Below, one piece after another: positions 8,361 to 63,939 of a DNA stretch of 64,000 bases. Below the pieces are notes generated by a model that was not told where the DNA came from, searched no databases, and saw only the letters and a program-made list of their open reading frames with translations. This DNA comes from an uncultured Clostridia bacterium. GTDB taxonomy: Bacteria > Bacillota > Clostridia > Christensenellales > UBA1242. Within the stretch, counting starts at the first letter, position 1, and every line of letters begins with the position of its first letter. Location of the stretch: assembly GCA_934746645.1 (NCBI GenBank), contig CAKVFE010000003.1, positions 68,997-132,996 on the forward strand, in the 5' to 3' direction. The position numbers were made by a program, and so were the translations under genes.

Positions 8361-8367
8361 TTGAGTA

Positions 8368-8494
8368 CCATAAAGAGTGTGCGAGGGACAGCCCCGTTGA
8401 CCACACAGCAACCTAGCAGATATGCCAAGGTGCTAAAGGCTGACCGATGGAAAACTGGTTGATATTATGCCCATCGGTAGCGATGGGTTTTTTC
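8368..8494 (+). promoter_or_regulatory. SAM-I (S-box) riboswitch with intrinsic terminator
   Basis: Conserved S-box core GAGGGAcaGCCCcgTTGAccacacAGCAACC…AAGGTGCTAAA. Terminator CCCATCG-GTAG-CGATGGG (8470-8487) plus T6. Lies directly upstream of metK. Confidence 0.85.
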
Positions 8495-30464: not shown

Positions 30465-30538
30465 GCGGATGTAGCTCAATGGTAGAGCTCTAGCCTTCCA
30501 AGCTAGTAACGTGGGTTCGATTCCCATCATCCGCTCCA
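30465..30538 (+). tRNA. tRNA-Gly (anticodon TCC), CCA encoded
   Basis: Cloverleaf folds by eye. Acceptor GCGGATG/CATCCGC, anticodon loop CTTCCAA, TΨC GGTTCGATTCC. Confidence 0.9.
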
Positions 30539-30576
30539 TTATTAGTAGGGTATAAATTGTTAATTTCCAGATATAT

Positions 30577-30653
30577 GCGCCAGTAGCTCAGCTGGATAGA
30601 GCATCGCCCTTCTAAGGCGAGGGTCGGGGGTTCGAATCCCTTCTGGCGTACCA
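30577..30653 (+). tRNA. tRNA-Arg (anticodon TCT), CCA encoded
   Basis: Acceptor GCGCCAG/CTGGCGT, anticodon loop CTTCTAA, GGTTCGAATCC. Confidence 0.9.
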
Positions 30654-30661
30654 TTTACTAT

Positions 30662-30739
30662 GGTGGATATAGTTCAGTTGGCTAGAACGCTAGATTGTGG
30701 CTCTAGAGGTCGTGGGTTCAAGTCCCACTATTCACCCCA
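30662..30739 (+). tRNA. tRNA-His (anticodon GTG) with extra 5' G(-1), CCA encoded
   Basis: Anticodon stem CTAGA/TCTAG, loop TTGTGGC, GGTTCAAGTCC. Confidence 0.9.
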
Positions 30740-30763
30740 TTATTTTAAAACTTTATATACCGT

Positions 30764-30838
30764 TGGGGTGTAGCCAAGCGGTAAGGCACGAGACTTTGAC
30801 TCTCGCATGCGTAGGTTCAAATCCTGCCACCCCAGCCA
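30764..30838 (+). tRNA. tRNA-Gln (anticodon TTG), CCA encoded
   Basis: Acceptor TGGGGTG/…CACCCCA, anticodon loop CTTTGAC, GGTTCAAATCC. Confidence 0.9.
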
Positions 30839-30847
30839 TTATTTTAT

Positions 30848-30923
30848 GGCCCATTAGCTCAGTAGGTAGAGCACATGACTTTTAATCATGGTGTCCCGAG
30901 TTCGACTCTCGGATGGGTCACCA
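30848..30923 (+). tRNA. tRNA-Lys (anticodon TTT), CCA encoded
   Basis: Anticodon stem CATGA/TCATG, loop CTTTTAA, AGTTCGACTCT. Confidence 0.9.
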
Positions 30924-30927
30924 ATAT

Positions 30928-31010
30928 GCGGACGTGGCGGAACTGGCAGACGCGCTAGACTTAGGCTCTAGTTGGAAACAGTGGGGGTTCAAGTCCCTTC
31001 GTCCGCACCA
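30928..31010 (+). tRNA. tRNA-Leu (anticodon TAG), long variable arm, CCA encoded
   Basis: Acceptor GCGGACG/CGTCCGC, anticodon loop CTTAGGC, variable arm, GGTTCAAGTCC. Confidence 0.9.
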
Positions 31011-40707: not shown

Positions 40708-41062
40708 GGGGGCGTAATGGTTTCGACGGGATTGTAAAGGTTAGGCTAAGCATATCACAGGCTCGTCTGTGTAAAAACGGAAACTTAAAATTTAAATGCA
40801 GAAAACAATACTGTATTAGCCGCTGCTTAATTTAGTCATGTGGCTTGTCCTTTTAGATAGTCCTACGGATCTATATAGGGCATTAGTTAGTAGGGTACGG
40901 ACTTTGACTTTCGCCTAGAAGTTTAAGTCTGAAACTATAGGCTGGTTCAACTTATATTTGTTAATTTTTTTAGGTTGAATAAGATATTCAAATTAACTAA
41001 ATATGTAGAAAGGTTTAAAATTTCTTTTTCGGACGCGGGTTCGACTCCCGCCGCTTCCACCA
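40708..41062 (+). ncRNA. ssrA: tmRNA (SsrA); tag reading frame 40798-40830 encodes AENNTVLAAA*
   Basis: 5' GGGGCGTAATGGTTTCGACGGG and tRNA-like 3' end GGACGCGGGTTCGACTCCCGCCGCTTCCACCA. Resume codon GCA, then GAA AAC AAT ACT GTA TTA GCC GCT GCT TAA. Starts 24 nt after smpB. Confidence 0.92.
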
Positions 41063-54505: not shown

Positions 54506-54547
54506 TATAAGTTTATAAAAAAATTAGGCATATATTGTGCCTAATAT

Positions 54548-54623
54548 GCTGATGTGGCTCAGTTGGTAGAGCAATGCATTCGTAATGCGTAGGCCGTGGG
54601 TTCGAGTCCCACCATCAGCTCCA
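54548..54623 (+). tRNA. tRNA-Thr (anticodon CGT), CCA encoded
   Basis: Acceptor GCTGATG/CATCAGC, anticodon loop TTCGTAA, GGTTCGAGTCC. Confidence 0.9.
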
Positions 54624-54644
54624 ATAATATTTATTAACATATAT

Positions 54645-54680
54645 CCTTACTGGGGAATTTTTCCTAGTGAGGTGTTTTTT
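54645..54680 (+). terminator. Terminator after tRNA-Thr
   Basis: CCTTACTGGG/CCTAGTGAGG hairpin (with G-U pairs) plus T-run. Confidence 0.65.
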
Positions 54681-54739
54681 ATTTAAAATAAATGCAATAT
54701 TGATAGCGCTTATGGTATAATCGGAGAAAGGAGTTAATT

Positions 54740-55030
54740 ATGGCTTCAAGTGTAGAGTATAGAGATTTTATTTTGGATCAACTATCAGATTTAAATCCGA
54801 CATACAAATCTATGATGGGTGAATATTTGATATATGTTAATGGTATTTATTTTGGTGGTATATTTGATGATAGGTTCTTATTGAAAATCACTGAAACAAA
54901 TAACAACTATAGACTAAGCAAAGTTTTGCCTTATGAAAATGCAAAACAAATGTACTTAGTCGAAAATGTAGACGATAGAAAATATCTTACATTGTTGGTA
55001 TTAGATACTATTAAGGGTTTAAAAAAGTAA
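54740..55030 (+). CDS. TfoX N-terminal-domain-like protein
   Basis: 96 aa; …YRDFILDQL……MMGEYLIYVNGIYFGGIFDDRFLLK… matches the TfoX_N pattern. Confidence 0.55.
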   Translation: MASSVEYRDFILDQLSDLNPTYKSMMGEYLIYVNGIYFGGIFDDRFLLKITETNNNYRLSKVLPYENAKQMYLVENVDDRKYLTLLVLDTIKGLKK

Positions 55031-55042
55031 TAGGAGTGGAGT

Positions 55043-55813
55043 ATGAAAGCAATATTTTTAACTAGTTATATTGGTGGTTGCAAGACTATAATAAATGGCA
55101 ACAATATATATAAAGAAATAGTAAAATGTGATAATTCTAATGGTTTTATTGATAAATTGAAAGAAGTTTGTTCAAAGATAAACAAGATGACATTTGTTGC
55201 AAGCAATCCTGATAGCTCTTTAAAAACAGATGAACACGCTAATATCACAAAAGATGCACTTAATTTAGACGGCTTTGAAATAAAAGAATTGACAATAATA
55301 GACCATAGTTTTGTTGGCGATATAGAAAAAACTATATTGTCTTCGGATATGGTATTTTTAGCTGGTGGCAATGTGCCTATGCAAAACAAGTATTTTAAAG
55401 AAATACATCTAAAACAAATACTTCAAAAATATACTGGAGTTTTGATAGGTCAAAGTGCTGGCAGTATGAATTGTAGTGATGTCGTTTATACTCAACCTGA
55501 AGAAGTAGAAGAATTTGATGATGTTAATTACAAAAGAATTATTAGTGGATTAGGAGTGGTTGATTTTGCTATAATGCCACATATTAATAGTGCTAATGAG
55601 ATAGATGAATATGGACATCCAAGTGTTATGCAGATGTGTTTGAAAGATTCCTATCAAATACCACATTATGGGATTTGTGATTATGGTTTTATAGAAATAA
55701 TCAATCATAATGCAGTAGCTTATGGCAAAACATATCTTATTGACAATGGTGTATGTAAACAAATTTGTGATGACGGACAAAGTGTTGCTATATCAAAATT
55801 GTCTATGCACTAG
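55043..55813 (+). CDS. Peptidase S51 / type-1 glutamine-amidotransferase-like (dipeptidase E family) protein
   Basis: FLAGGN and nucleophile-elbow GQSAGSM motifs. Confidence 0.6.
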   Translation: MKAIFLTSYIGGCKTIINGNNIYKEIVKCDNSNGFIDKLKEVCSKINKMTFVASNPDSSLKTDEHANITKDALNLDGFEIKELTIIDHSFVGDIEKTILSSDMVFLAGGNVPMQNKYFKEIHLKQILQKYTGVLIGQSAGSMNCSDVVYTQPEEVEEFDDVNYKRIISGLGVVDFAIMPHINSANEIDEYGHPSVMQMCLKDSYQIPHYGICDYGFIEIINHNAVAYGKTYLIDNGVCKQICDDGQSVAISKLSMH

Positions 55814-55969
55814 TTGGTAACAAGTGGTATCATAGTTAGTAAATGGTATTTGGCTATCTGTCGTAGTTGCCGAATGTTTGGCATTGATAGTTAGTATAGT
55901 TTGCCTAATCGCAAAAAAGAAAAAATATCAATATTAGATTTATGTGTTAAGAATATATAAAACAAAAAA

Positions 55970-56063: not shown

Positions 56064-56699
56064 ATGAAAAAACAAATTGTTAATCCAGTATTAAGACAAC
56101 CTATGCTTAATGGTATTATGCCTGTGTGGGATAGTAACAGCCAAATATTGATGTTGGGTTCAATAACTGCTACAGATGGTATGAAAAAAGGTTTTTATTA
56201 TGCGAGTCAACGCAACCAGTTTTGGCAGTTATTGGATTGTGTTTTGGGTACAACTTGTTTTTCAGATTTAAAAGACCAATTAAAAAACAACTATGATAAT
56301 TATAAGAATGGTTTGATTGATTTTGATATTTTTGAAGATAACAAAAACAAAATTAAAGAAACAATGGCTTTTGAATTAACAAAAAGAAAAATTGCTATTT
56401 GTGATGTATTTTTGCAATGTTATTTTAACAACAATAGTTCGCTTGATAATGATATTATTCTTAATGACCCATTGTATCCAGCGATGTCTAATAAAGAAAC
56501 AATAAAAAATATTATTGATAATTCTAATATAAAATATGTCGTTGTTAATAGCCGATTTGTGCAAAAACAATTTGAAAAAATGCACATAACTGGTGACTTT
56601 GAAGTTAAATATGTTGTTAGTCCATCTCCAAGAAAAGGGAGTATTGATAGTAAATTATCTAGTTGGCAATCAGTATTTAACGAATTGAATAAGGATTGA
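56064..56699 (+). CDS. UDG-superfamily DNA glycosylase (DNA-deoxyinosine / hypoxanthine glycosylase-like)
   Basis: ILMLGSITATDGMKKGFYYASQRNQFWQLL resembles the family pattern ilGS.P…S……YYa.p.N.FW. TGA stop; no terminator before the next gene. Confidence 0.6.
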   Translation: MKKQIVNPVLRQPMLNGIMPVWDSNSQILMLGSITATDGMKKGFYYASQRNQFWQLLDCVLGTTCFSDLKDQLKNNYDNYKNGLIDFDIFEDNKNKIKETMAFELTKRKIAICDVFLQCYFNNNSSLDNDIILNDPLYPAMSNKETIKNIIDNSNIKYVVVNSRFVQKQFEKMHITGDFEVKYVVSPSPRKGSIDSKLSSWQSVFNELNKD

Positions 56700-56782
56700 T
56701 AATATTAATTACGTAAAAAAAATAATATGTGATATACTTATAAAAAATAGATTATAAAATTATGTTTAAATAAGGAAGTAGT

Positions 56783-56959
56783 ATGTTAAAATTCTCAGCT
56801 GGGTATGTAGGGACTAATCCTAATTTTGTAATACAAAATATTGATGTGAAAAGTAAAAACAATAATCCAGTATTTTCTATATTTAATAATATATTGTTAA
56901 GAGGGTGTCCAACTATACCATCTAAATTTTTACAAAAAAATTTGCGGGGGGGGGTATAA
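56783..56959 (+). CDS. 5' fragment (58 codons) of the nuclease-helicase gene, truncated by a frameshift at the homopolymer tracts
   Basis: ATG 56783 is preceded by AAGGAAG (56772-56778). Reads …PSKFLQKNLRGGV* with TAA at 56957-56959, immediately after G9. Confidence 0.7.
   Translation: MLKFSAGYVGTNPNFVIQNIDVKSKNNNPVFSIFNNILLRGCPTIPSKFLQKNLRGGV
56934..56954 (+). repeat. Homopolymer pair A7 (56934-56940) and G9 (56946-56954): candidate slipped-strand / phase-variation tract
   Basis: Counted directly: tacAAAAAAAtttgcGGGGGGGGGtat. I noticed no other G or C run longer than about 5 in the window. Confidence 0.85.
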
Positions 56960-57114
56960 CTACTCGTTTTAATTATGTATATGATTTTGAAAATGTTTGT
57001 TGGAATAATATAATTAAAGGTGGAGTAGAAACAAATCCTGCAATTGTTTTTTATAATGAAATACTACCTAAAGTATTAGGGAAATATGCTAAAACTTTTA
57101 TTGCTGAGTGTCCA

Positions 57115-60054
57115 TTGTCTGACATAATTTATAAATATGGAAATGTAGATTTTGAAAGTGTAGATTTTTATTCTCCATTATTTAATGCTGTTATAGAAAT
57201 TGATGGAAATCAACATATAAACAATGATGAGCAAAACATAAAAGACCATAATAGAAATAAAGTATTAGAATTAAATGGTGTTGATATTATTAGAATAAAA
57301 ACATCTGAGATAAATAACATTAATATAGTGAAACAAAAATTAAATAAATTAAAATATAATCTGGATTATAAAAATTCAGTTGTTTTTTCTAATAAATTAA
57401 GTGAATGTGATTTATATTATATGTCTATTATGAGAATAGAAATTTTATTGTTGTCTTTATATCAATATAATTATTTAAAATTGACAGATAATCAAATTGC
57501 ATTAAATATATATAGTAAGGAAAATATAAAAAAAGAAATTTTTGAAACTGCATATTTTGATTTTATGTCGTGGCTAAAAAATTTGTCAGTTTTGCAAAAT
57601 CAAAAATTTGTAATTCCTAACTTACATATAAATATAGTTAATAGTGAAAAAGAATTATCTATATTAAAAAATGGTATTAATATTGCTATTTTTTTGAAAG
57701 ATGTATATTCACAAACTAATTATAGTAATATTATTTACATAAAAAATGATTATTTCTTATATGAAGAGAATCTAATTCCAACAATAGAAAATAATTCTAC
57801 AAAAAGTTCATATAGATATAAAAAAAATTATTTTAAAGTATCTAATTGTAATATCACTTATAAGATAACAAAAGAAGGACATAGTGAAGCTTTAATTTAT
57901 ATACTTAAAAATGTTTCTAATATTTATAATGATTTTAGAGCAAATCAATTAGACATTATAATAGAATGTCTAAATAAAACAAGTGTTATAGGAATTTTGC
58001 CGACTGGAGCTGGCAAGTCATTGTGCTATCAACTCGTAGCATTATTAATTCCGTCCATAACATTAGTTGTATCTCCATTACAATTATTAATGATTGATCA
58101 ATATAATAGTATTAAGGCAAAACTTGGAATAACTAATATAATATATATTAGTGCTGATACGAAAGAAAATATAAGTGTATTGGAGAATAACCAAGCTTTA
58201 ATTTGTATAATTTCACCAGAAAGATTTTTTAGTGAAAAATTTACAAGTTTGTTGTCTAGTAAAAGAATTTCTGTAGGGTTTGTGGTAATCGATGAAGCTC
58301 ATTGTTTATCTGAATGGGGACACGATTTTAGAACATCTTATTTATGTTTAAGCCATAATCTTAATAGATTTTTGCCAAATAATACATACTTAATGGCATT
58401 AACAGCCACAGCATCTAATAGAGTATTCGAGGATATAGATTGTGAGTTTCAGAACTTTAAACATAAAAAGACAAGATCAATATATGCTGATTGTATGAAA
58501 AGAGATAATTTAACCATAATTGTACTCGAAACAAAAGATAAATATAAAGAACTAATTGATAATATTTATCCTACATTAGTTGGTGTTAATAAAGATAAGA
58601 CTTTGATATTTACTAAAACAAAATATTCATATTATGCCCCACATGCTTCTGCATGTATTACATTGACTGAAGCAATAAAAAGTGAATATGATAAAAAAAT
58701 TGATTGTAACTTAATAGACTACTATGCTGGTGGCGATGATGATAATAATCAAGATAAAATTAAAAAATTGAATCAATTTAAAAATGGAAATAAATTAGTA
58801 TTTTTTGCAACAAAGGCTTTTGGTATGGGAGTTGATATCCCTGATATAAGAAAAACAATTCATTATGGATTACCATCTTCATTGGAAGGTTTATATCAAC
58901 AAGTTGGTAGAGCTGGAAGAGACGGAAAACCTTCAAAATGTTATGTCTATTTTACTAAAGAAAGAGAAGAAACTTTAAATTTGTATTTTAAGATTCCACC
59001 AATACCTGTAAGTGTTATGGAAAATCATTTAAATATGCTTAATGAATTACGAACTAATTTTTATTTTATAGAAAATTCTAATTTGGATATTGATATTGAA
59101 AAAGAAGTATGCATTAGATTGTTAGAGGGGATCAAAAGGATAAACAAAAAAGGTAAAACTGACATATCTTGTTCTATTATTAAAGATAGTATTCTAAGAA
59201 GTGTTAATGATACACATTTAAATAAAATATTTGAAAAATATGGTAGTGTAAAAAATATTATAGAAAAAGGGCTGTATAGATTATTTTTATTAGGCGAAAT
59301 AAATATGTGGGGAGTGGTTTATGCTCAAAATTTAAATGATCCGATTTTTAATCATTTACAAGTTACAAGTTTATCTGAAGAAGAAAAACTTGCAAAATTA
59401 AAATATCATATTGAAAAGTATGAATCTAAATTTAAATTTGAAGATGGAAATTCTTTTGATAATAGATTAAAATTTTTAATTAGATGGACGTATGATAATT
59501 TTTTACAAGAAAGAATACAATCTATGAAAACTTTGTATGAAGAATGTGTGCATTTTACTACATCTGAAAGATTTATAAATTTTATTGATGAATATTTTTC
59601 AAATGACCCTATATATACTCAATTGATATCTAAGGGAGTAGAACTGAAAAAATGGATAAGGGCACTTGAAGAATATCCCGAAAAGACGAAGGATAGAATA
59701 GCAAGATTACTAGAATCTTATGATAAAATTACACCATTAAATTATGTATCTGGAATTACTAGATTGAGAGTTAACGATTTTGAACATAGTGATGGTAGAA
59801 GAAGATTGTGTATGGCGTTGGAAGAAATAAAAGAATATAGTGATGAAGATAGAATGTACTTGTTTTTTAATACATATAAATATTTAACGAAAGATAAACA
59901 AAATACATTTGTGGAATGTTGGCTAAATTATTGCAAAGAAGATGCACAAAAAATATATGAAAGTACACAAAATGAATGTTGTGAACAATTTTTAATTATA
60001 AATTTTGTAAATGATTTGTTGAAAATAGGAGAAAAAATAGATGATAGATTATAA
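57115..60054 (+). CDS. Vsr/DUF559-like PD-(D/E)XK nuclease fused to a RecQ-family SF2 helicase with a long unassigned C-terminal region (main frame; true 5' end probably 56783 via frameshift)
   Basis: Nuclease core VDFYSPLFNAVIEIDGNQH…D..RN..L…GVDIIRI (about 57148-57312). Helicase motif I PTGAGKS (58000-58020), motif II DEAH (58291-58302) in VVIDEAHCLSEWGHDFR, motif III LTATA, motif V FGMGVDIPDIR, motif VI QQVGRAGRDG (58897-58926). The frame is open back to 56926, has no ATG/GTG, and has no SD before the TTG at 57115. Confidence 0.8.
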   Translation: MSDIIYKYGNVDFESVDFYSPLFNAVIEIDGNQHINNDEQNIKDHNRNKVLELNGVDIIRIKTSEINNINIVKQKLNKLKYNLDYKNSVVFSNKLSECDLYYMSIMRIEILLLSLYQYNYLKLTDNQIALNIYSKENIKKEIFETAYFDFMSWLKNLSVLQNQKFVIPNLHINIVNSEKELSILKNGINIAIFLKDVYSQTNYSNIIYIKNDYFLYEENLIPTIENNSTKSSYRYKKNYFKVSNCNITYKITKEGHSEALIYILKNVSNIYNDFRANQLDIIIECLNKTSVIGILPTGAGKSLCYQLVALLIPSITLVVSPLQLLMIDQYNSIKAKLGITNIIYISADTKENISVLENNQALICIISPERFFSEKFTSLLSSKRISVGFVVIDEAHCLSEWGHDFRTSYLCLSHNLNRFLPNNTYLMALTATASNRVFEDIDCEFQNFKHKKTRSIYADCMKRDNLTIIVLETKDKYKELIDNIYPTLVGVNKDKTLIFTKTKYSYYAPHASACITLTEAIKSEYDKKIDCNLIDYYAGGDDDNNQDKIKKLNQFKNGNKLVFFATKAFGMGVDIPDIRKTIHYGLPSSLEGLYQQVGRAGRDGKPSKCYVYFTKEREETLNLYFKIPPIPVSVMENHLNMLNELRTNFYFIENSNLDIDIEKEVCIRLLEGIKRINKKGKTDISCSIIKDSILRSVNDTHLNKIFEKYGSVKNIIEKGLYRLFLLGEINMWGVVYAQNLNDPIFNHLQVTSLSEEEKLAKLKYHIEKYESKFKFEDGNSFDNRLKFLIRWTYDNFLQERIQSMKTLYEECVHFTTSERFINFIDEYFSNDPIYTQLISKGVELKKWIRALEEYPEKTKDRIARLLESYDKITPLNYVSGITRLRVNDFEHSDGRRRLCMALEEIKEYSDEDRMYLFFNTYKYLTKDKQNTFVECWLNYCKEDAQKIYESTQNECCEQFLIINFVNDLLKIGEKIDDRL

Positions 60055-60625
60055 AGAAATGGACAATGTAGTTAAACAACTAAATTTATACATTGATAAG
60101 ATTGAAAAGTTTACTCAAACGCAAGAGAAATTAAATATATCTATTAGTGAAATTGATAAAATAAAAAATGAAATTTTAGTGACTAAAGAAGATATAAAGA
60201 AATTTGAAGAATTAGTTGGTGATTATACTCAATCAATTAAAGATTTGGAAAATCAACACAATATCATAAAATCGCAATTTGATACAGTTCTACGAGATTA
60301 TAAAAATTTACATTCATCTTATGAATTATTGGAAATCGAATTAAAAAAAGTTGATTCAAAAATTGACGATTGTAATAAAGATATTAAAGAATTGAGTGAA
60401 AAAATTGATTCAAAAATTGAAGATTGTAATAAAAATATTTTGGTTTTAGATGAAAATATGAAAAATAGTTTTGAATTAATAAAGTCAGAACATAAAATGT
60501 TATCTGAAAATTTGAATGATATTTCTAACACTCAGAAAATTCAAAACGTTTGGATAGGATTGTTAAGTGGAATTTTAGGCATTGTTTTAATATTGAATAT
60601 TATTTTATTTTTTAAATTTATCTAG
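60041..60625 (+). CDS. Tail-anchored coiled-coil protein (C-terminal TM helix), translationally coupled to the nuclease-helicase
   Basis: ATG 60041 follows AGGAG and overlaps the upstream gene by 14 nt. Heptad-rich K/E/I/L sequence; C-terminal VWIGLLSGILGIVLILNIILFF (60548-60613) followed by only 3 residues. Confidence 0.7.
   Translation: MIDYKEMDNVVKQLNLYIDKIEKFTQTQEKLNISISEIDKIKNEILVTKEDIKKFEELVGDYTQSIKDLENQHNIIKSQFDTVLRDYKNLHSSYELLEIELKKVDSKIDDCNKDIKELSEKIDSKIEDCNKNILVLDENMKNSFELIKSEHKMLSENLNDISNTQKIQNVWIGLLSGILGIVLILNIILFFKFI
60351..60439 (+). repeat. Internal direct repeat, 35 nt twice with 54-nt period, in the coiled-coil gene
   Basis: TTGATTCAAAAATTGAcGATTGTAATAAAgATATT (60351-60385) vs TTGATTCAAAAATTGAaGATTGTAATAAAaATATT (60405-60439). 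Encodes DSKIDDCNKDI / DSKIEDCNKNI. Confidence 0.85.
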
Positions 60626-60652
60626 ATTTGTTTTTAATAACTATAATTATTG

Positions 60653-60681
60653 TTACACTATATTTTAATATGTGTTATAAT
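60653..60681 (+). promoter_or_regulatory. Candidate promoter with extended -10 for the lipoprotein gene
   Basis: TTACAC (60653-60658), 17-nt spacer, TGtTATAAT (60673-60681). Confidence 0.5.
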
Positions 60682-60708
60682 GTGTTATTATTGAGTGTGG
60701 GTAAAAAT

Positions 60709-62032: not shown

Positions 62033-62186
62033 ATTTAATTGAGTATATAAATATTTGCAATTTTTGTATATCTATAATACAATATTATGTAAGAAAGGTA
62101 AGAAAAGTAAGACGATGAAGAAATAAAAGTCTTACATTTACTATAAATTACTAAGGTAAATAAATTACATTTATAAAGGAGATATT

Positions 62187-62411
62187 ATGACTCAAAACAA
62201 TGACAATGGTAAATATATCTGGACAACAAAAGTGAGCAATAAAGGTCAGATAGTTATACCTAAAGAAGCAAGAGATGTGTTTGATATAAAAGAAGGTGAC
62301 ACACTTATTATGTTTGGAGATATTGAAAAAGGTATTGCATTAGCAAAATACGATGATTATTTAAAGTTTGCTGAAGCAATTTTCAATGCTAAAAATGGAG
62401 ATAAAAAGTAA
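62187..62411 (+). CDS. AbrB/MazE/SpoVT-family DNA-binding domain protein
   Basis: KVSNKGQIVIPKEARDVFDIKEGD swapped-hairpin motif. Stop overlaps the next start (TAATG). Confidence 0.65.
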   Translation: MTQNNDNGKYIWTTKVSNKGQIVIPKEARDVFDIKEGDTLIMFGDIEKGIALAKYDDYLKFAEAIFNAKNGDKK

Positions 62412-63124
62412 TGATAGAAATCAAAAATTTATCAAAATATTATGGTAAGTTGTGTGCAGTTGACAATGTCAATATGACTATTGATGACAACAAATGTTTT
62501 GCATTATTGGGACTTAATGGTGCAGGCAAAACAACATTGATTAGTGTACTAACCACTCAATTAAAACCTAGCTCTGGTACAGCAATTATCAATGGTAAAG
62601 ATTTGTTGACAGAGTCTAATGATATAAAAAAGATAATCAATATTTCGCCACAAGAAAGTGCAGTCGCTAAAAATCTTACTGTTAGGGAAAATCTACAGTT
62701 AATATCAGATTTGTATGATATTAAAGATAGTCAATCAAAAATTGATAAAGTAATTGAAGAATTTGGTCTTAAAGAAAAAACCGATACTATATGTAAAAAA
62801 CTTAGTGGTGGACAAATAAGAAGATTGAGTATTGCACTTGCTATTATAACCGAACCACAAATTTTGTTTTTAGACGAACCTACTTTAGGACTAGATGTAA
62901 AGGCAAGAAAAACATTGTGGGAAATAATTGAAAAATTAAAAAATAGTATGACTATAGTTTTGACTACACATTATCTTGATGAAGTTGAACATTTAGCTGA
63001 TGAAGTAGCCATTATTAGTCGTGGCAAAATAATGATTAAAGGGACAATAGACTTTATAAAAGAAAAGACAAATACTGACTCTTTGGAAAATGCATTTTTA
63101 AAGTTGAGTGAGGAGGAAGAATAA
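62411..63124 (+). CDS. ABC transporter ATP-binding protein
   Basis: Walker A GLNGAGKTT, signature LSGGQIRR, Walker B ILFLDEPT. Confidence 0.92.
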   Translation: MIEIKNLSKYYGKLCAVDNVNMTIDDNKCFALLGLNGAGKTTLISVLTTQLKPSSGTAIINGKDLLTESNDIKKIINISPQESAVAKNLTVRENLQLISDLYDIKDSQSKIDKVIEEFGLKEKTDTICKKLSGGQIRRLSIALAIITEPQILFLDEPTLGLDVKARKTLWEIIEKLKNSMTIVLTTHYLDEVEHLADEVAIISRGKIMIKGTIDFIKEKTNTDSLENAFLKLSEEEE

Positions 63125-63864
63125 TGAAAAAGTTGATTTCTTTAACCAAACGCAATATGAAAGAAATGTTGCGTGACCCACTTAGTCTTGTATTTTGTTT
63201 GGCTTTTCCAGTAGTTATGCTTGTATTGATGCAGTCTATATTTTTAAGTTTTGAAAATATCCCTGACAACTTTTTAATAGAAAATTATGCAAGTGGTATT
63301 TGTGTTTTTGGATATACATTTATAGGTATGTTTGTCGCTCTTCAAATAGCTTCAGATAAAAATACATCATTTATTAAAAGACTTAATATTGCACCTATTA
63401 ATAAGTTGGTGTATTATTTAAGCTTTGTATTTTCTGCATTGCCATTGGCAATATTACAATCAATAATATTTTTTGCCATAGCTTTAATATTTGGTTTTCC
63501 ATTCAATATTAATCTATTGTTGTCAATTATATATTTGATACCATCTGCTTTATTGTATATAAGTCTTGGTATTATGATTGGTGTTATATGTAACAACGAA
63601 AAACAAACAGGACCTATATCATCAATATTTATCTCTTTGACTGGTATAATGGGTGGTGTATTTATGCCATTGTCTGCATTGAAAGGTGGGATAAAAGTGG
63701 TTGTTAATATTTTGCCTTTTTCACATTCGACACTTATAGCAAGTCAACTTCATACTTTGGGAGCAAAAGCTATATATCCACATATTTTGTACTTATTATT
63801 GTATATAGTGTTATTTTTAACTATTGCAGTTGTAGTTGAACACATAAAAAGTAAAAAGAAATAA
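63124..63864 (+). CDS. ABC-2 type transporter permease
   Basis: Six predicted TM helices. Start overlaps the ATPase stop (TAATG). Confidence 0.75.
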   Translation: MKKLISLTKRNMKEMLRDPLSLVFCLAFPVVMLVLMQSIFLSFENIPDNFLIENYASGICVFGYTFIGMFVALQIASDKNTSFIKRLNIAPINKLVYYLSFVFSALPLAILQSIIFFAIALIFGFPFNINLLLSIIYLIPSALLYISLGIMIGVICNNEKQTGPISSIFISLTGIMGGVFMPLSALKGGIKVVVNILPFSHSTLIASQLHTLGAKAIYPHILYLLLYIVLFLTIAVVVEHIKSKKK

Positions 63865-63910
63865 GTGGTTTATGTAGATTAATTAGTGTGAAATGATTTT
63901 ATAATTAAAA

Positions 63911-63939
63911 AAAAGATGTTCTTAACAACATCTTTTTTT
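63911..63939 (+). terminator. Rho-independent terminator
   Basis: AAGATGTT-CTTAAC-AACATCTT plus T-run. Confidence 0.8.

What the first reader, a model, noticed from the sequence alone, without database searches (positions are those of the whole stretch)
56926..56959. A7/G9 homopolymer pair splits the nuclease-helicase gene: a probable phase-variable ON/OFF switch
Seen in the sequence: translation from the well-supported start (AAGGAAG then ATG 56783) runs …FLQKNLRGGV and stops at TAA 56957-56959. The frame that encodes the nuclease and helicase (stop at 60054) is open from 56926. That frame has no ATG or GTG, and no SD before the TTG at 57115. The conserved N-terminal half of the nuclease domain (…ETNPAIVFYNEILPKVLGKYAKTFIAECPL…) lies upstream of that TTG. 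The two frames overlap only across A7 (56934-56940) and G9 (56946-56954). Gaining 1 nt (G10 or A8) or losing 2 nt (G7) fuses them into one ORF. A G9 run is exceptional in this AT-rich window; I noticed no other G/C run longer than about 5. Established knowledge: poly-G/C tracts of 8 or more are classic slipped-strand contingency switches, as in the restriction-modification and surface genes of Campylobacter, Helicobacter, Neisseria and mycoplasmas. Inference: the module is stochastically switched and is OFF in this assembly. Three alternatives remain: -1 ribosomal slippage on A_AAA_AAT (which lands in the correct frame at 56941), transcriptional slippage, or a homopolymer sequencing error.
Basis: partly seen in the sequence, partly recalled or inferred. 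Interest (0 to 1): 0.78.

Follow-up and report, generated by a model that had tools for sequence, protein, structure and literature searches.

The report
Poly-G frameshift splits a defence helicase
A run of nine Gs (next to a run of seven As) breaks the reading frame of a nuclease-RecQ helicase gene carried on a small mobile cassette in an uncultured gut Clostridia bacterium; the break is real and the gene is still under selection, so it is probably a slippage-controlled on/off (or leaky) gene, but no copy with a different tract length has yet been seen.

Summary
ORF1 (56783-56959, 58 aa) and the -1 frame (open 56926-60054) overlap only across A7 (56934-40) and G9 (56946-54). G9 is the only G/C run longer than 5 in 64 kb (0.01 expected). 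More than 50 homologues of 1088-1111 aa cover both pieces, so a single ORF of about 1090 aa is ancestral.

It is not an assembly error. Nine contigs from at least 7 samples, forming 3 haplotypes 1.3-2% apart, carry the identical A7-TTTGC-G9. It is not a decayed pseudogene either: 33 of 76 substitutions are synonymous against 17 expected, the 3 upstream of the TTG are all synonymous, and the only indel is 3 bp.

The defining feature of phase variation, tract-length variation, was looked for and not found. No in-frame allele and no G8, G11, G12 or A6 allele exists in 15 billion proteins.

My best reading (about 0.45) is a slipped-strand G-tract switch whose OFF state (G9) dominates. Close rivals are constitutive recoding (transcriptional slippage, or -1 frameshifting at the in-register A_AAA_AAT or G_GGG_GGG) and a recently fixed loss. 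The gene sits in a 4-kb two-gene accessory cassette that most strains lack. This is a known kind of phenomenon; interest is moderate.

The parts
56706..60703 (+). Accessory cassette of about 4.0 kb. It holds its own promoter region, the nuclease-RecQ gene and a small partner gene. It is inserted between the 211-aa gene and the 280/293-aa gene.
   Evidence: blastn against empty-site strains (L099-L103), which read 211 aa | 280 aa | 104 aa with no helicase. Homology breaks at 56705/56706 and at 60703/60704.
56772..56785 (+). Shine-Dalgarno-like AAGGAAG followed by the ATG start of the gene
   Evidence: Read directly from the sequence. Homologues start with the same MLKFSAGY.
56783..56959 (+). 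ORF1: 58 codons. It is the true N-terminus of the nuclease-helicase (residues 1-53) plus 5 out-of-frame codons and a TAA stop.
   Evidence: The exact 58-aa product is called on 9 contigs.
56923..56944 (+). Weak A-U hairpin (9 bp, loop ACAA) formed by T5 and A7. It ends 1 nt before the G9 run.
   Evidence: Centroid and MFE structure. The region as a whole is not more stable than shuffles (z = -0.8).
56934..56940 (+). A7 run. Together with T 56941 it forms the in-register -1 slippery heptamer A_AAA_AAT (56935-56941).
   Evidence: The same CAA AAA AAT is present, in frame, in the homologue L096.
56941..56943 (+). TTT codon in the downstream frame, at the family's conserved Phe position (IPSxxLxxxFG)
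   Evidence: The alignment column has F in 51 of 68 sequences, and in all relatives of at least 43% identity. I occurs 10 times and L 6 times.
56946..56954 (+). G9 run, the presumed slipped-strand site. It also forms the in-register -1 heptamer G_GGG_GGG (56947-56953). It encodes a Gly-rich loop.
   Evidence: The AlphaFold2 model places residues 55-62 in a loop, in a block of comparatively low confidence.
56957..56959 (+). TAA stop of the upstream frame
56926..60054 (+). Downstream (-1) frame encoding the rest of the protein: the DUF559/Vsr-like nuclease core (about 57037-57351), the RecQ-family helicase core (about 57925-58962) and a helical C-terminal domain. Stop at 60052-54.
57115..57117 (+). 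TTG, the first canonical start codon in the downstream frame. Gene callers use it (979-aa product). It would delete the first helix and strand of the nuclease core.
60041..60625 (+). Partner gene: a 194-aa coiled-coil protein with a C-terminal hydrophobic helix. It overlaps the helicase stop by 14 nt. Its length varies between haplotypes (176, 194 or 208 aa).
   Evidence: Homologues have an overlapping downstream gene of 156-200 aa.

Best explanation
What it is. The gene encodes a roughly 1090-aa fusion of a DUF559/Vsr-like nuclease and a RecQ-family helicase. It is the large subunit of a two-gene accessory cassette that looks like a defence module, in an uncultured Eubacteriales/Clostridiales species.

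Proposed mechanism. Near codon 55 the gene carries a G9 homopolymer that this AT-rich genome would not produce by chance. I take this tract to be a slipped-strand mutable site, a contingency locus.
- G10 or G7 gives the full-length protein, with Leu-Arg-Gly(n) in a permissive surface loop.
- G9 ends translation after 58 codons. It leaves only a product that starts at a TTG with no Shine-Dalgarno sequence and lacks part of the nuclease core.
- G9 (OFF) is the prevailing state in every population sampled so far. That could be because the effector is costly, or because G9 is the length that slippage tends towards.
- Occasional ON phases, probably helped by some transcriptional or ribosomal slippage on the same A7/G9 runs, keep the whole reading frame under purifying selection.

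Shown: the split, its reality across samples, the ancestral single ORF, the abnormality of the tract, the selection, and the accessory nature of the cassette.

Inferred: reversible switching, which state is ON, and the defence function.
For: - The tract is unusual. G9 is the only G/C run longer than 5 in 64 kb (0.01 expected). It is the only G/C run of 7 or more in four conspecific loci checked (L001, L003-L005). It sits exactly at the only frame break. GGG is the rarest Gly codon in the window, at 2.8%.
- The tract is new to this lineage. The homologues at about 58% identity whose DNA was read (L092-L096) have no G tract there or anywhere in the gene.
- The tract encodes a loop in the most variable stretch of the N-terminal region (alignment columns 56-62; AlphaFold2 loop 55-62). 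Adding or removing a Gly there should be tolerated.
- It is not an artefact. Nine contigs from at least 7 samples and several assemblers read identically.
- The gene is not decaying. Of 76 substitutions, 33 are synonymous against 17.2 expected (0 of 5000 permutations reached this). In the 5' third, 7 of 13 are synonymous against 2.8 expected (P = 0.008). The 3 substitutions upstream of the TTG are all synonymous in their respective frames (P = 0.013). The only indel is 3 bp and in frame. Wrong frames give dN/dS of about 1.
- The setting fits. The cassette is accessory, absent from most strains, lies in a variable island beside a tRNA gene, and has an integrase next to it in one strain.
- Established knowledge: poly-G/C tracts of 8 or more in the 5' coding part of restriction and surface genes are the classic phase-variation mechanism in Campylobacter, Helicobacter, Neisseria and Haemophilus (review PMC8355987).
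Against: - No tract-length variant was found. All 3 haplotypes and at least 7 samples are A7/G9. No allele of about 1090 aa with more than 61% identity exists among 5.8 billion clusters. No G8, G11, G12 or A6 upstream ORF exists.
- The JGI metagenome collection and IMG/VR hold no copy of the locus.
- No contig breaks at the tract, as a mixed population might cause in an assembly graph.
- Only one such tract is seen in about 80 kb of this genome, so there is no sign of a genome-wide poly-G contingency repertoire.
- Poly-G phase variation is not established for Clostridia. This rests on my own knowledge; no supporting paper turned up.
- The conserved Phe codon (TTT 56941-43) lies in the downstream frame. 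A G10 ON state would therefore read Leu-Arg where close relatives all have Phe-Gly.
Confidence: 0.45

Rival explanations
1. Constitutive recoding. The out-of-frame A7/G9 arrangement is the normal genotype. A fraction of expression events restores the frame and yields a low, throttled level of a potentially toxic nuclease-helicase. The frame could be restored in two ways.
- RNA polymerase adds one nucleotide on A7 (product ...QKKFAGGG...) or on G9 (product ...QKNLRGGG...).
- Ribosomes slip -1 on A_AAA_AAT (product ...QKNFAGGG...) or on G_GGG_GGG.
For: - The tract pair is strictly invariant across 3 haplotypes, at least 7 samples and 9 contigs, while the gene stays under purifying selection on both sides. 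This is what a fixed recoding site predicts.
- Both heptamers are in the correct register (sequence).
- A shift at A7 or T3 keeps the family's conserved Phe54. The column is F in every relative of at least 43% identity.
- There is a precedent in Clostridia. IS1447 of Clostridium thermocellum makes its transposase by +1 transcriptional slippage, and a run of seven A is sufficient (PMC6211511).
- Low-level compensatory frameshifting on a G run is documented for herpesvirus thymidine kinase (PMC5009743).
- A 9-nt homopolymer is about the length of the RNA:DNA hybrid in the elongation complex (my own knowledge, not tested here), and an A-U hairpin ends 1 nt before it.
Against: - No recognisable stimulator was found. 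The downstream fold is not better than shuffles (z = -1.1 and -0.8). I saw no SD-like element 10-14 nt upstream in the sequence. Rfam gives no hit at the site.
- A7 is ancestral and sits in frame in an intact homologue (L096), so it did not evolve for this purpose.
- The Phe argument is weak. TTT in the -1 frame follows almost automatically from AAT-TTG in the upstream frame, and Phe to Leu is conservative. Leu or Ile occupy that column in 16 of 68 sequences.
- Recoding does not explain why a G9 run exists at all.
- No other family member shows a split at this site. The other frameshifted relatives are sporadic.
Confidence: 0.27
2. Recently fixed loss of function. A slip of one base (G10 to G9, or T4 to T3) inactivated an accessory gene. 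The dead allele then spread or recurred, and the gene is at the start of decay. Any remaining selection would act on a truncated helicase-only product initiated at the TTG.
For: - The state is out of frame and invariant in all known copies.
- Most strains lack the cassette entirely.
- Sporadic frameshifted relatives exist elsewhere in the family. In L097 the cause is a 1-nt insertion outside any homopolymer.
- The 5' third of the gene, around the break, has 3-4 times lower diversity than the middle. This would fit a recent recombinational spread of one allele.
Against: - Synonymous changes are in significant excess over the whole gene (33 of 76 against 17.2 expected). The same holds within the low-diversity 5' third that shares the break (7 of 13 against 2.8 expected, P = 0.008) and in the part upstream of the TTG (3 of 3, P = 0.013).
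- There are no secondary stops, and the only indel is 3 bp in frame.
- The TTG has no Shine-Dalgarno sequence, and its product would lack helix 86-105 and strand 107-111 of the nuclease core.
Confidence: 0.2
3. Homopolymer sequencing or assembly error. The true sequence would be G10 (or A8) and the gene would be intact.
For: Long G runs are error-prone for some sequencing platforms, and the window comes from a metagenome-assembled genome.
Against: The same A7-TTTGC-G9 is found in 9 contigs from at least 7 samples. They were built by different pipelines (scaffold-type assemblies, k141-named contigs and Logan contigs) and cover three diverged haplotypes. No alternative length was ever called.
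Confidence: 0.03
4. Gene fission into two working polypeptides. The 58-aa N-terminal piece terminates at TAA, and translation restarts at the overlapping ATA (56956-58, motif ATAA). The G run would serve as a Shine-Dalgarno-like element, giving a second subunit of about 1032 aa.
For: - GGGGG can pair with the anti-SD sequence, and it lies 5 nt before ATA. The stop and the putative restart codon overlap (sequence).
- The break falls in a loop between a small N-terminal subdomain and the rest of the protein.
- Both parts remain constrained.
Against: - ATA is a very poor initiator.
- No family member is naturally split here.
- Nothing tested here supports reinitiation.
Confidence: 0.05

Closest known systems
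Poly-G/C contingency loci (slipped-strand phase variation) of restriction-modification and surface genes in Campylobacter, Helicobacter, Neisseria and Haemophilus
   Same: A G/C homopolymer of 8 or more in the 5' coding region of a gene involved in conflict or defence, in an AT-rich genome. The tract is far longer than composition predicts. The frame is lost at the tract, and the gene is otherwise intact and under selection.
   Different: No tract-length polymorphism has been observed (9 of 9 contigs are G9). The host is an uncultured Clostridia-class bacterium, where this mechanism is not established. Only one such tract is seen in the sequence available. The gene is a nuclease-RecQ fusion rather than an R-M or surface gene.
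IS1447 (IS3 family) +1 transcriptional slippage in Clostridium thermocellum (PMC6211511)
   Same: The host is in the Firmicutes/Clostridia. Two overlapping frames need a gain of one nucleotide. The site is an A run followed by T, and seven A were sufficient there. A predicted stem-loop lies next to the run.
   Different: IS1447 has A9 in nature, and the arrangement is conserved across 34 elements. Here A7 is also found in frame in an intact homologue, the split is confined to one lineage, and a G9 run lies 5 nt downstream.
Compensated 'savior' indels and rescued frameshifts: the herpesvirus thymidine kinase G run (PMC5009743) and Citrobacter rodentium tssM (title and abstract of PMC4256274, seen; paper not read)
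   Same: An indel in a homopolymer breaks the frame, yet low-level slippage on the same run still supplies some full-length product.
   Different: Those cases were shown experimentally. Here there are no expression data.
PsyrTA / RqlHI: a RecQ-like helicase toxin with a DprA-like antitoxin
   Same: The helicase core matches the PADLOC PsyrT profile (E = 1e-63). A homologue at 30% identity on E. coli and Klebsiella plasmids lies directly after a DprA gene and is followed by a small overlapping gene.
   Different: The cassette here has no DprA-like gene. The partner is a coiled-coil protein with a C-terminal hydrophobic helix. The N-terminal DUF559 nuclease module is an additional feature.
DpdF of the Dpd 7-deazaguanine DNA-modification and restriction cluster
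   Same: It gives the best PADLOC hits (E = 1.5e-73). One DpdF profile aligns from the nuclease region through the helicase (residues 74-795).
   Different: The NCBIfam DpdF equivalog scores 136 bits against a cut-off of 550. None of the neighbours scanned matched another Dpd protein.

Membership tests
Phase-variable (contingency) locus with a homopolymeric tract | A long homopolymer (G/C of about 8 or more) within the 5' coding region or the promoter, longer than composition predicts | tested here: met
   G9 lies at codons 55-58. It is the only G/C run longer than 5 in 64 kb, with 0.01 expected. GGG is 2.8% of Gly codons.
Phase-variable (contingency) locus with a homopolymeric tract | Tract length differs between strains or samples, giving in-frame and out-of-frame alleles | tested here: not met
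   Nine contigs, at least 7 samples and 3 haplotypes all read A7/G9. No in-frame allele exists in 5.8 billion clusters. No G8, G11, G12 or A6 upstream ORF exists in 15 billion proteins. The sample is small and consists of consensus assemblies only.
Phase-variable (contingency) locus with a homopolymeric tract | Tract-length heterogeneity within a population, and reversible switching | not testable with these tools
   This needs raw reads, amplicons or a culture. No contig breaks at the tract, which is weak negative evidence only.
Phase-variable (contingency) locus with a homopolymeric tract | The gene is otherwise intact and under purifying selection, not decaying | tested here: met
   dN/dS is 0.23-0.40 in the correct frame and about 1 in the wrong frames. 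Of 76 substitutions, 33 are synonymous against 17.2 expected. The only indel is 3 bp.
Programmed -1 ribosomal frameshift site | A slippery heptamer X_XXY_YYZ in register with the upstream frame | tested here: met
   A_AAA_AAT at 56935-41 and G_GGG_GGG at 56947-53 (sequence).
Programmed -1 ribosomal frameshift site | A stimulatory element: a downstream hairpin or pseudoknot 5-9 nt away, or an upstream SD-like sequence | tested here: not met
   Fold z-scores are -1.1 and -0.8. Rfam gives no hit. I saw no SD-like motif 10-14 nt upstream.
Programmed -1 ribosomal frameshift site | The shift site is conserved across the gene family | tested here: not met
   The 67 homologues in alignment A1 read through this region in one frame. 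The G tract is absent from the homologue DNA that was read.
Programmed transcriptional slippage site | A homopolymer long enough for RNA polymerase realignment (A/T of 7-9 or more) | tested here: inconclusive
   A7 and G9 are both present. A7 was sufficient in IS1447 (PMC6211511). Whether G9 slips in this organism is unknown, and no transcript data exist.
RecQ-family helicase (NCBIfam TIGR00614) | Score above the curated subfamily cut-off | tested here: met
   233 bits against a cut-off of 219.8. The best PDB sequence and fold matches are BLM, RECQ1, RECQ5 and RecQ cores.
PsyrTA / RqlHI | A RecQ-like toxin paired with an adjacent DprA-like (PsyrA/RqlI) gene | tested here: not met
   The PsyrT profile hits the helicase core. 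None of the flanking proteins scanned matched PsyrA, and the NCBIfam scan gave no DprA-like match. The partner is a coiled-coil protein.
DpdF (Dpd system) | NCBIfam equivalog cut-off reached, and a dpd gene neighbourhood | tested here: not met
   136 bits against a cut-off of 550. The neighbours are unrelated.

The most novel reading that the evidence does not exclude
The out-of-frame A7-TTTGC-G9 arrangement is not an OFF state. It would be a fixed, selected recoding cassette. RNA-polymerase or ribosome slippage on the paired homopolymers would deliver a small, constant dose of an otherwise toxic nuclease-RecQ defence effector. That would be a chromosomal defence gene whose expression level is set by programmed slippage. 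The strict invariance of the tract across diverged haplotypes, together with purifying selection on both frames, is what this predicts.
Probability: 0.25. Interest if true: 0.65.

Novelty: new member of a known kind. Interest (0 to 1): 0.45.

Why it matters
If the G9 tract does switch, it would be an example of homopolymer-driven phase variation of a defence-type gene that is not a restriction-modification gene, in an uncultured gut Clostridia lineage. I know of no established poly-G contingency loci in that group. It would also add to the idea that costly defence effectors are kept as reversible OFF alleles.

If instead the fixed frameshift is decoded by slippage, it would be a rare case of recoding used to throttle a cellular defence gene.

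There is a practical point either way. Gene callers currently annotate this gene as a 58-aa orphan plus a 979-aa protein starting at a TTG. That loses a conserved N-terminal subdomain and part of the nuclease core.

The two-gene cassette itself (nuclease-RecQ plus a membrane-anchored coiled-coil protein) matched none of the complete defence systems tested here (PsyrTA, Dpd). It recurs widely, including on enterobacterial plasmids.

Tried and rejected
- The genome-contig scan with the family alignment was swamped by generic RecQ motifs (SEWGHDFR, TKAFGMG).
- Two metagenome-contig scans were run. The anchored variable-gap pattern found nothing. The loose AAAAAAATTTGCGGGGGG pattern found 81 loci; the 80 checked by blastn are all unrelated. 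The viral-contig scan was also empty.
- The N-terminal 120-aa protein search returned only four short fragments. One (L097) is a split homologue caused by a 1-nt T insertion outside any homopolymer. The others are on contigs under 1 kb, one of them read at about 2x coverage. They show sporadic decay or error, not a shared recoding site.
- I considered the A7/T3 position as the true lesion, because TTT 56941-43 restores the conserved Phe and the homologue L096 reads CAA AAA AAT TTT GG. I kept it only as weak evidence for three reasons. TTT in the -1 frame is nearly automatic given AAT-TTG. Phe to Leu is conservative. A G9/G10 run should be far more mutable than T4 or A8 (my own knowledge, not tested here).
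- Downstream RNA structure as a frameshift stimulator was rejected (z = -1.1 and -0.8). Rfam found nothing at the site.
- Literature searches for this architecture as a named defence system (DUF559 + RecQ; Hhe/Vsr helicase) found nothing that matches.
- PsyrTA and DpdF membership was rejected on partner genes and curated cut-offs.
Full report
OBSERVATION

The sequence is as described. AAGGAAG precedes ATG 56783. The frame runs ...IPSKFLQKNLRGGV and stops at TAA 56957-59. The -1 frame has a stop at 56923-25 and is then open to 60054. Its first ATG/GTG/TTG is TTG 57115.

The overlap of the two frames (56926-56959) contains A7 (56934-40), TTTGC and G9 (56946-54). G9 is the only G or C run longer than 5 in the 64-kb window, with 0.008-0.01 such runs expected. 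GGG is the rarest glycine codon in the window's long ORFs, at 2.8%. G10, G7, A8 or T4 each produce one ORF of 1089-1090 codons.

Two -1 slippery heptamers lie in register with the upstream frame. G_GGG_GGG (56947-53) was not.

WHAT THE GENE IS

The repaired protein has three parts:
- a DUF559/Vsr-like nuclease module (Pfam, residues 127-186);
- a RecQ-family helicase core, which passes the TIGR00614 cut-off (233 against 219.8 bits) and whose best PDB matches are BLM, RECQ5 and RecQ;
- a long helical C-terminal domain.

A single ORF is therefore ancestral, and the 58-aa ORF is the real N-terminus.

The AlphaFold2 model (mean pLDDT 89.5) shows a small N-terminal subdomain, a helix at 48-54, and a loop at 55-62 that the G tract encodes. 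The nuclease core begins at helix 86-105 and strand 107-111. A product starting at the TTG (residue 112) would lack those elements.

CONTEXT

The window is chromosomal, with transketolase, Lon, RNase R, tmRNA and tRNAs. It belongs to a common uncultured Eubacteriales/Clostridiales (Bacillota) species known from MAGs.

Most strains of that species read 211-aa gene | 280-aa gene | 104-aa gene. In the window, about 4.0 kb (56706-60703) is inserted between the first two. The insert carries a promoter region, the nuclease-helicase and a 194-aa partner. The partner is a coiled-coil protein with a C-terminal hydrophobic helix, and it overlaps the helicase stop by 14 nt.

Homologues elsewhere always carry a similar small overlapping downstream gene, and they often sit next to recombinases. 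The region lies 2 kb from a tRNA gene. It shows other presence/absence blocks, and one strain has an integrase next to the 211-aa gene. I infer a mobile two-gene cassette of the defence type. No function was tested.

IS THE BREAK REAL?

Looking up the exact 58-aa and 979/978-aa products found 9 contigs from at least 7 samples (ENA and Logan, several assemblers). They form three haplotypes that differ by 1.3-2.0% over the gene. All carry the identical A7-TTTGC-G9. An assembly or sequencing error is therefore very unlikely.

IS THE TRACT VARIABLE?

This is the defining test for phase variation, and it came out negative as far as public assemblies allow.
- The homology search used the G10-repaired protein as query. 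It found nothing above 61% identity other than the TTG-started fragments.
- Exact look-ups of the upstream ORFs expected for G8, G11, G12 and A6 found nothing among 15 billion proteins.
- The JGI metagenome collection and IMG/VR hold no copy of the locus.
- No contig ends at the tract.

There are caveats. The sample is small. Assemblies report the majority allele only. A G9 attractor with OFF favoured could also give this picture.

IS THE GENE DECAYING?

No. Among the three haplotypes, dN/dS is 0.23-0.40 in the repaired frame and about 1 in the wrong frames.

| Region | Substitutions | Synonymous observed | Synonymous expected | P |
|---|---|---|---|---|
| Whole gene | 76 | 33 | 17.2 | 0 of 5000 permutations reached this |
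| ORF1 plus bridge (upstream of the TTG) | 3 | 3 | 0.73 | 0.013 |
| 5' third, 56783-58000 | 13 | 7 | 2.8 | 0.008 |

Expected values come from spectrum-matched neutral placement. The three substitutions upstream of the TTG are synonymous in their own frames. The only indel in the gene is 3 bp and in frame.

The 5' third has low diversity, which could reflect a recent spread of one allele, yet the synonymous excess holds there too. So both sides of the break have been translated, in their respective frames, during the divergence of lineages that all carry the break.

WHERE IS THE SHIFT?

Family alignment shows IPSxxLxxxFG. The Phe column is F in 51 of 68 sequences, and in all relatives of at least 43% identity; I occurs 10 times and L 6 times. 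The window's TTT (56941-43) occupies that position, but in the downstream frame, between A7 and G9. The homologue L096 reads CAA AAA AAT TTT GGT, which is A7 plus T4, in frame and with no G tract.

A shift at A7 or T3 therefore restores Phe, giving QKNFAGGG or QKKFAGGG. G10 gives QKNLRGGG. I treat this as weak evidence only. TTT in the -1 frame is almost automatic given AAT-TTG, and Phe to Leu is conservative. By general knowledge, a G9/G10 run is also much more mutable than T4 or A8.

No homologue whose DNA was read has any G/C run of 7 or more. The tract is new to this lineage.

MECHANISM

My best reading (confidence about 0.45) is that G9 is a slipped-strand mutable tract in a permissive loop. 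G10 or G7 would be ON, and G9 would be the prevalent OFF state. Occasional ON phases would keep the frame under selection.

The close rival (about 0.27) is that the out-of-frame state is constitutive and is decoded by slippage.
- Clostridium thermocellum IS1447 uses +1 transcriptional slippage for which A7 suffices (PMC6211511).
- Low-level compensatory frameshifting on a G run is known for herpesvirus thymidine kinase (PMC5009743).
- Against it, no stimulatory RNA structure, no SD-like element and no Rfam motif was found, and the site is not conserved in the family.

The two readings are not exclusive, because the same runs can slip in replication, transcription and translation.

The remaining rivals are a recently fixed loss (about 0.2), disfavoured by the selection tests; gene fission with restart at ATA (about 0.05); and sequencing error (about 0.03).

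COMPARISON WITH KNOWN SYSTEMS

It works like a poly-G contingency locus (review PMC8355987). However, the membership feature 'tract length varies' was tested and not met, so I do not file it as a demonstrated phase-variable gene.

The protein is a RecQ-family member. The PADLOC DpdF and PsyrT profiles hit the helicase core. The DpdF equivalog fails its cut-off, and no DprA-like PsyrA partner is present. A homologue at 30% identity on E. coli and Klebsiella plasmids does follow a DprA gene and is followed by a small overlapping gene. That places the family near PsyrTA/RqlHI.

VERDICT

This is a new member of a known kind, with moderate interest (0.45). Read-level tract counts and a reporter or proteomic test would settle it.

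Noticed in passing
window 56706-60703 (compare L099 7636-7643): The nuclease-RecQ gene and its 194-aa partner form an insertion of about 4.0 kb. It is absent from most strains of the species, whose empty site reads GATTGATAA|AATATGAAAAAAATT. The right end of the insert supplies 13 extra N-terminal codons to the gene caller's 293-aa version of the neighbouring 280-aa gene. No terminal repeats were looked for.
   Followed up: partly
window 54516-55895 and 62045-63934: Two further blocks are present in the window and absent from L099. One, between the tRNA gene (54548-54620) and the 211-aa gene, holds a TfoX_N-like gene and a Peptidase_S51 gene. The other holds a MazE-like gene and an ABC transporter pair. 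In L004 an integrase sits directly upstream of the 211-aa gene. The region behaves as a variable island.
   Followed up: partly
window 60041-60625: The partner gene varies in length between haplotypes (176, 194 or 208 aa) through in-frame indels of 42-96 nt in its coiled-coil part, with a repeated KIDxCNKxI motif. The protein ends in a hydrophobic helix (LLSGILGIVLILNIILFFKFI).
   Followed up: no
window 56987-57014: A match of 11 out of 12 to the sigma-70 consensus (TTGAAA-16-TATAAT) lies on the + strand inside the bridge, 100 nt upstream of the TTG. It could drive a transcript for the truncated product. It may simply be a by-product of AT-rich coding sequence.
   Followed up: no
window 57983-59182: Substitution density between haplotypes is 3-4 times higher in the middle of the helicase gene (9-14 per 300 nt) than in the 5' third (2-5 per 300 nt). 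This suggests a recombination mosaic or uneven constraint.
   Followed up: partly
L097 1570-1585: A relative at about 59% identity, from another sample, is split into 158-aa and 955-aa products by a single extra T (AAC-T-AGAGAT) outside any homopolymer. It is an ordinary frameshift, and it shows that the family is prone to sporadic inactivation.
   Followed up: yes
L185 (E. coli plasmid NZ_CP067400.1 55349-66606): A 1558-aa RecQ-family homologue (30% identity over residues 3-1016) lies directly after a DprA gene. It is followed by a 162-aa hypothetical gene that overlaps it by 4 nt. This is a PsyrTA/RqlHI-like arrangement with a third small gene, and identical copies occur on Klebsiella and Raoultella plasmids.
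   Followed up: partly
window 56064-56699: The 211-aa gene upstream of the cassette gives a sub-threshold match to DNA-deoxyinosine glycosylase (TIGR04274, 59.5 bits against a cut-off of 80). It is conserved in more than 80 sequence variants of the species.
   Followed up: no
window 40708-41062; 30465-31007; 8365-8470: A tmRNA gene, a cluster of six tRNA genes and a SAM riboswitch. These are ordinary chromosomal features that confirm the window is a bacterial chromosome.
   Followed up: no
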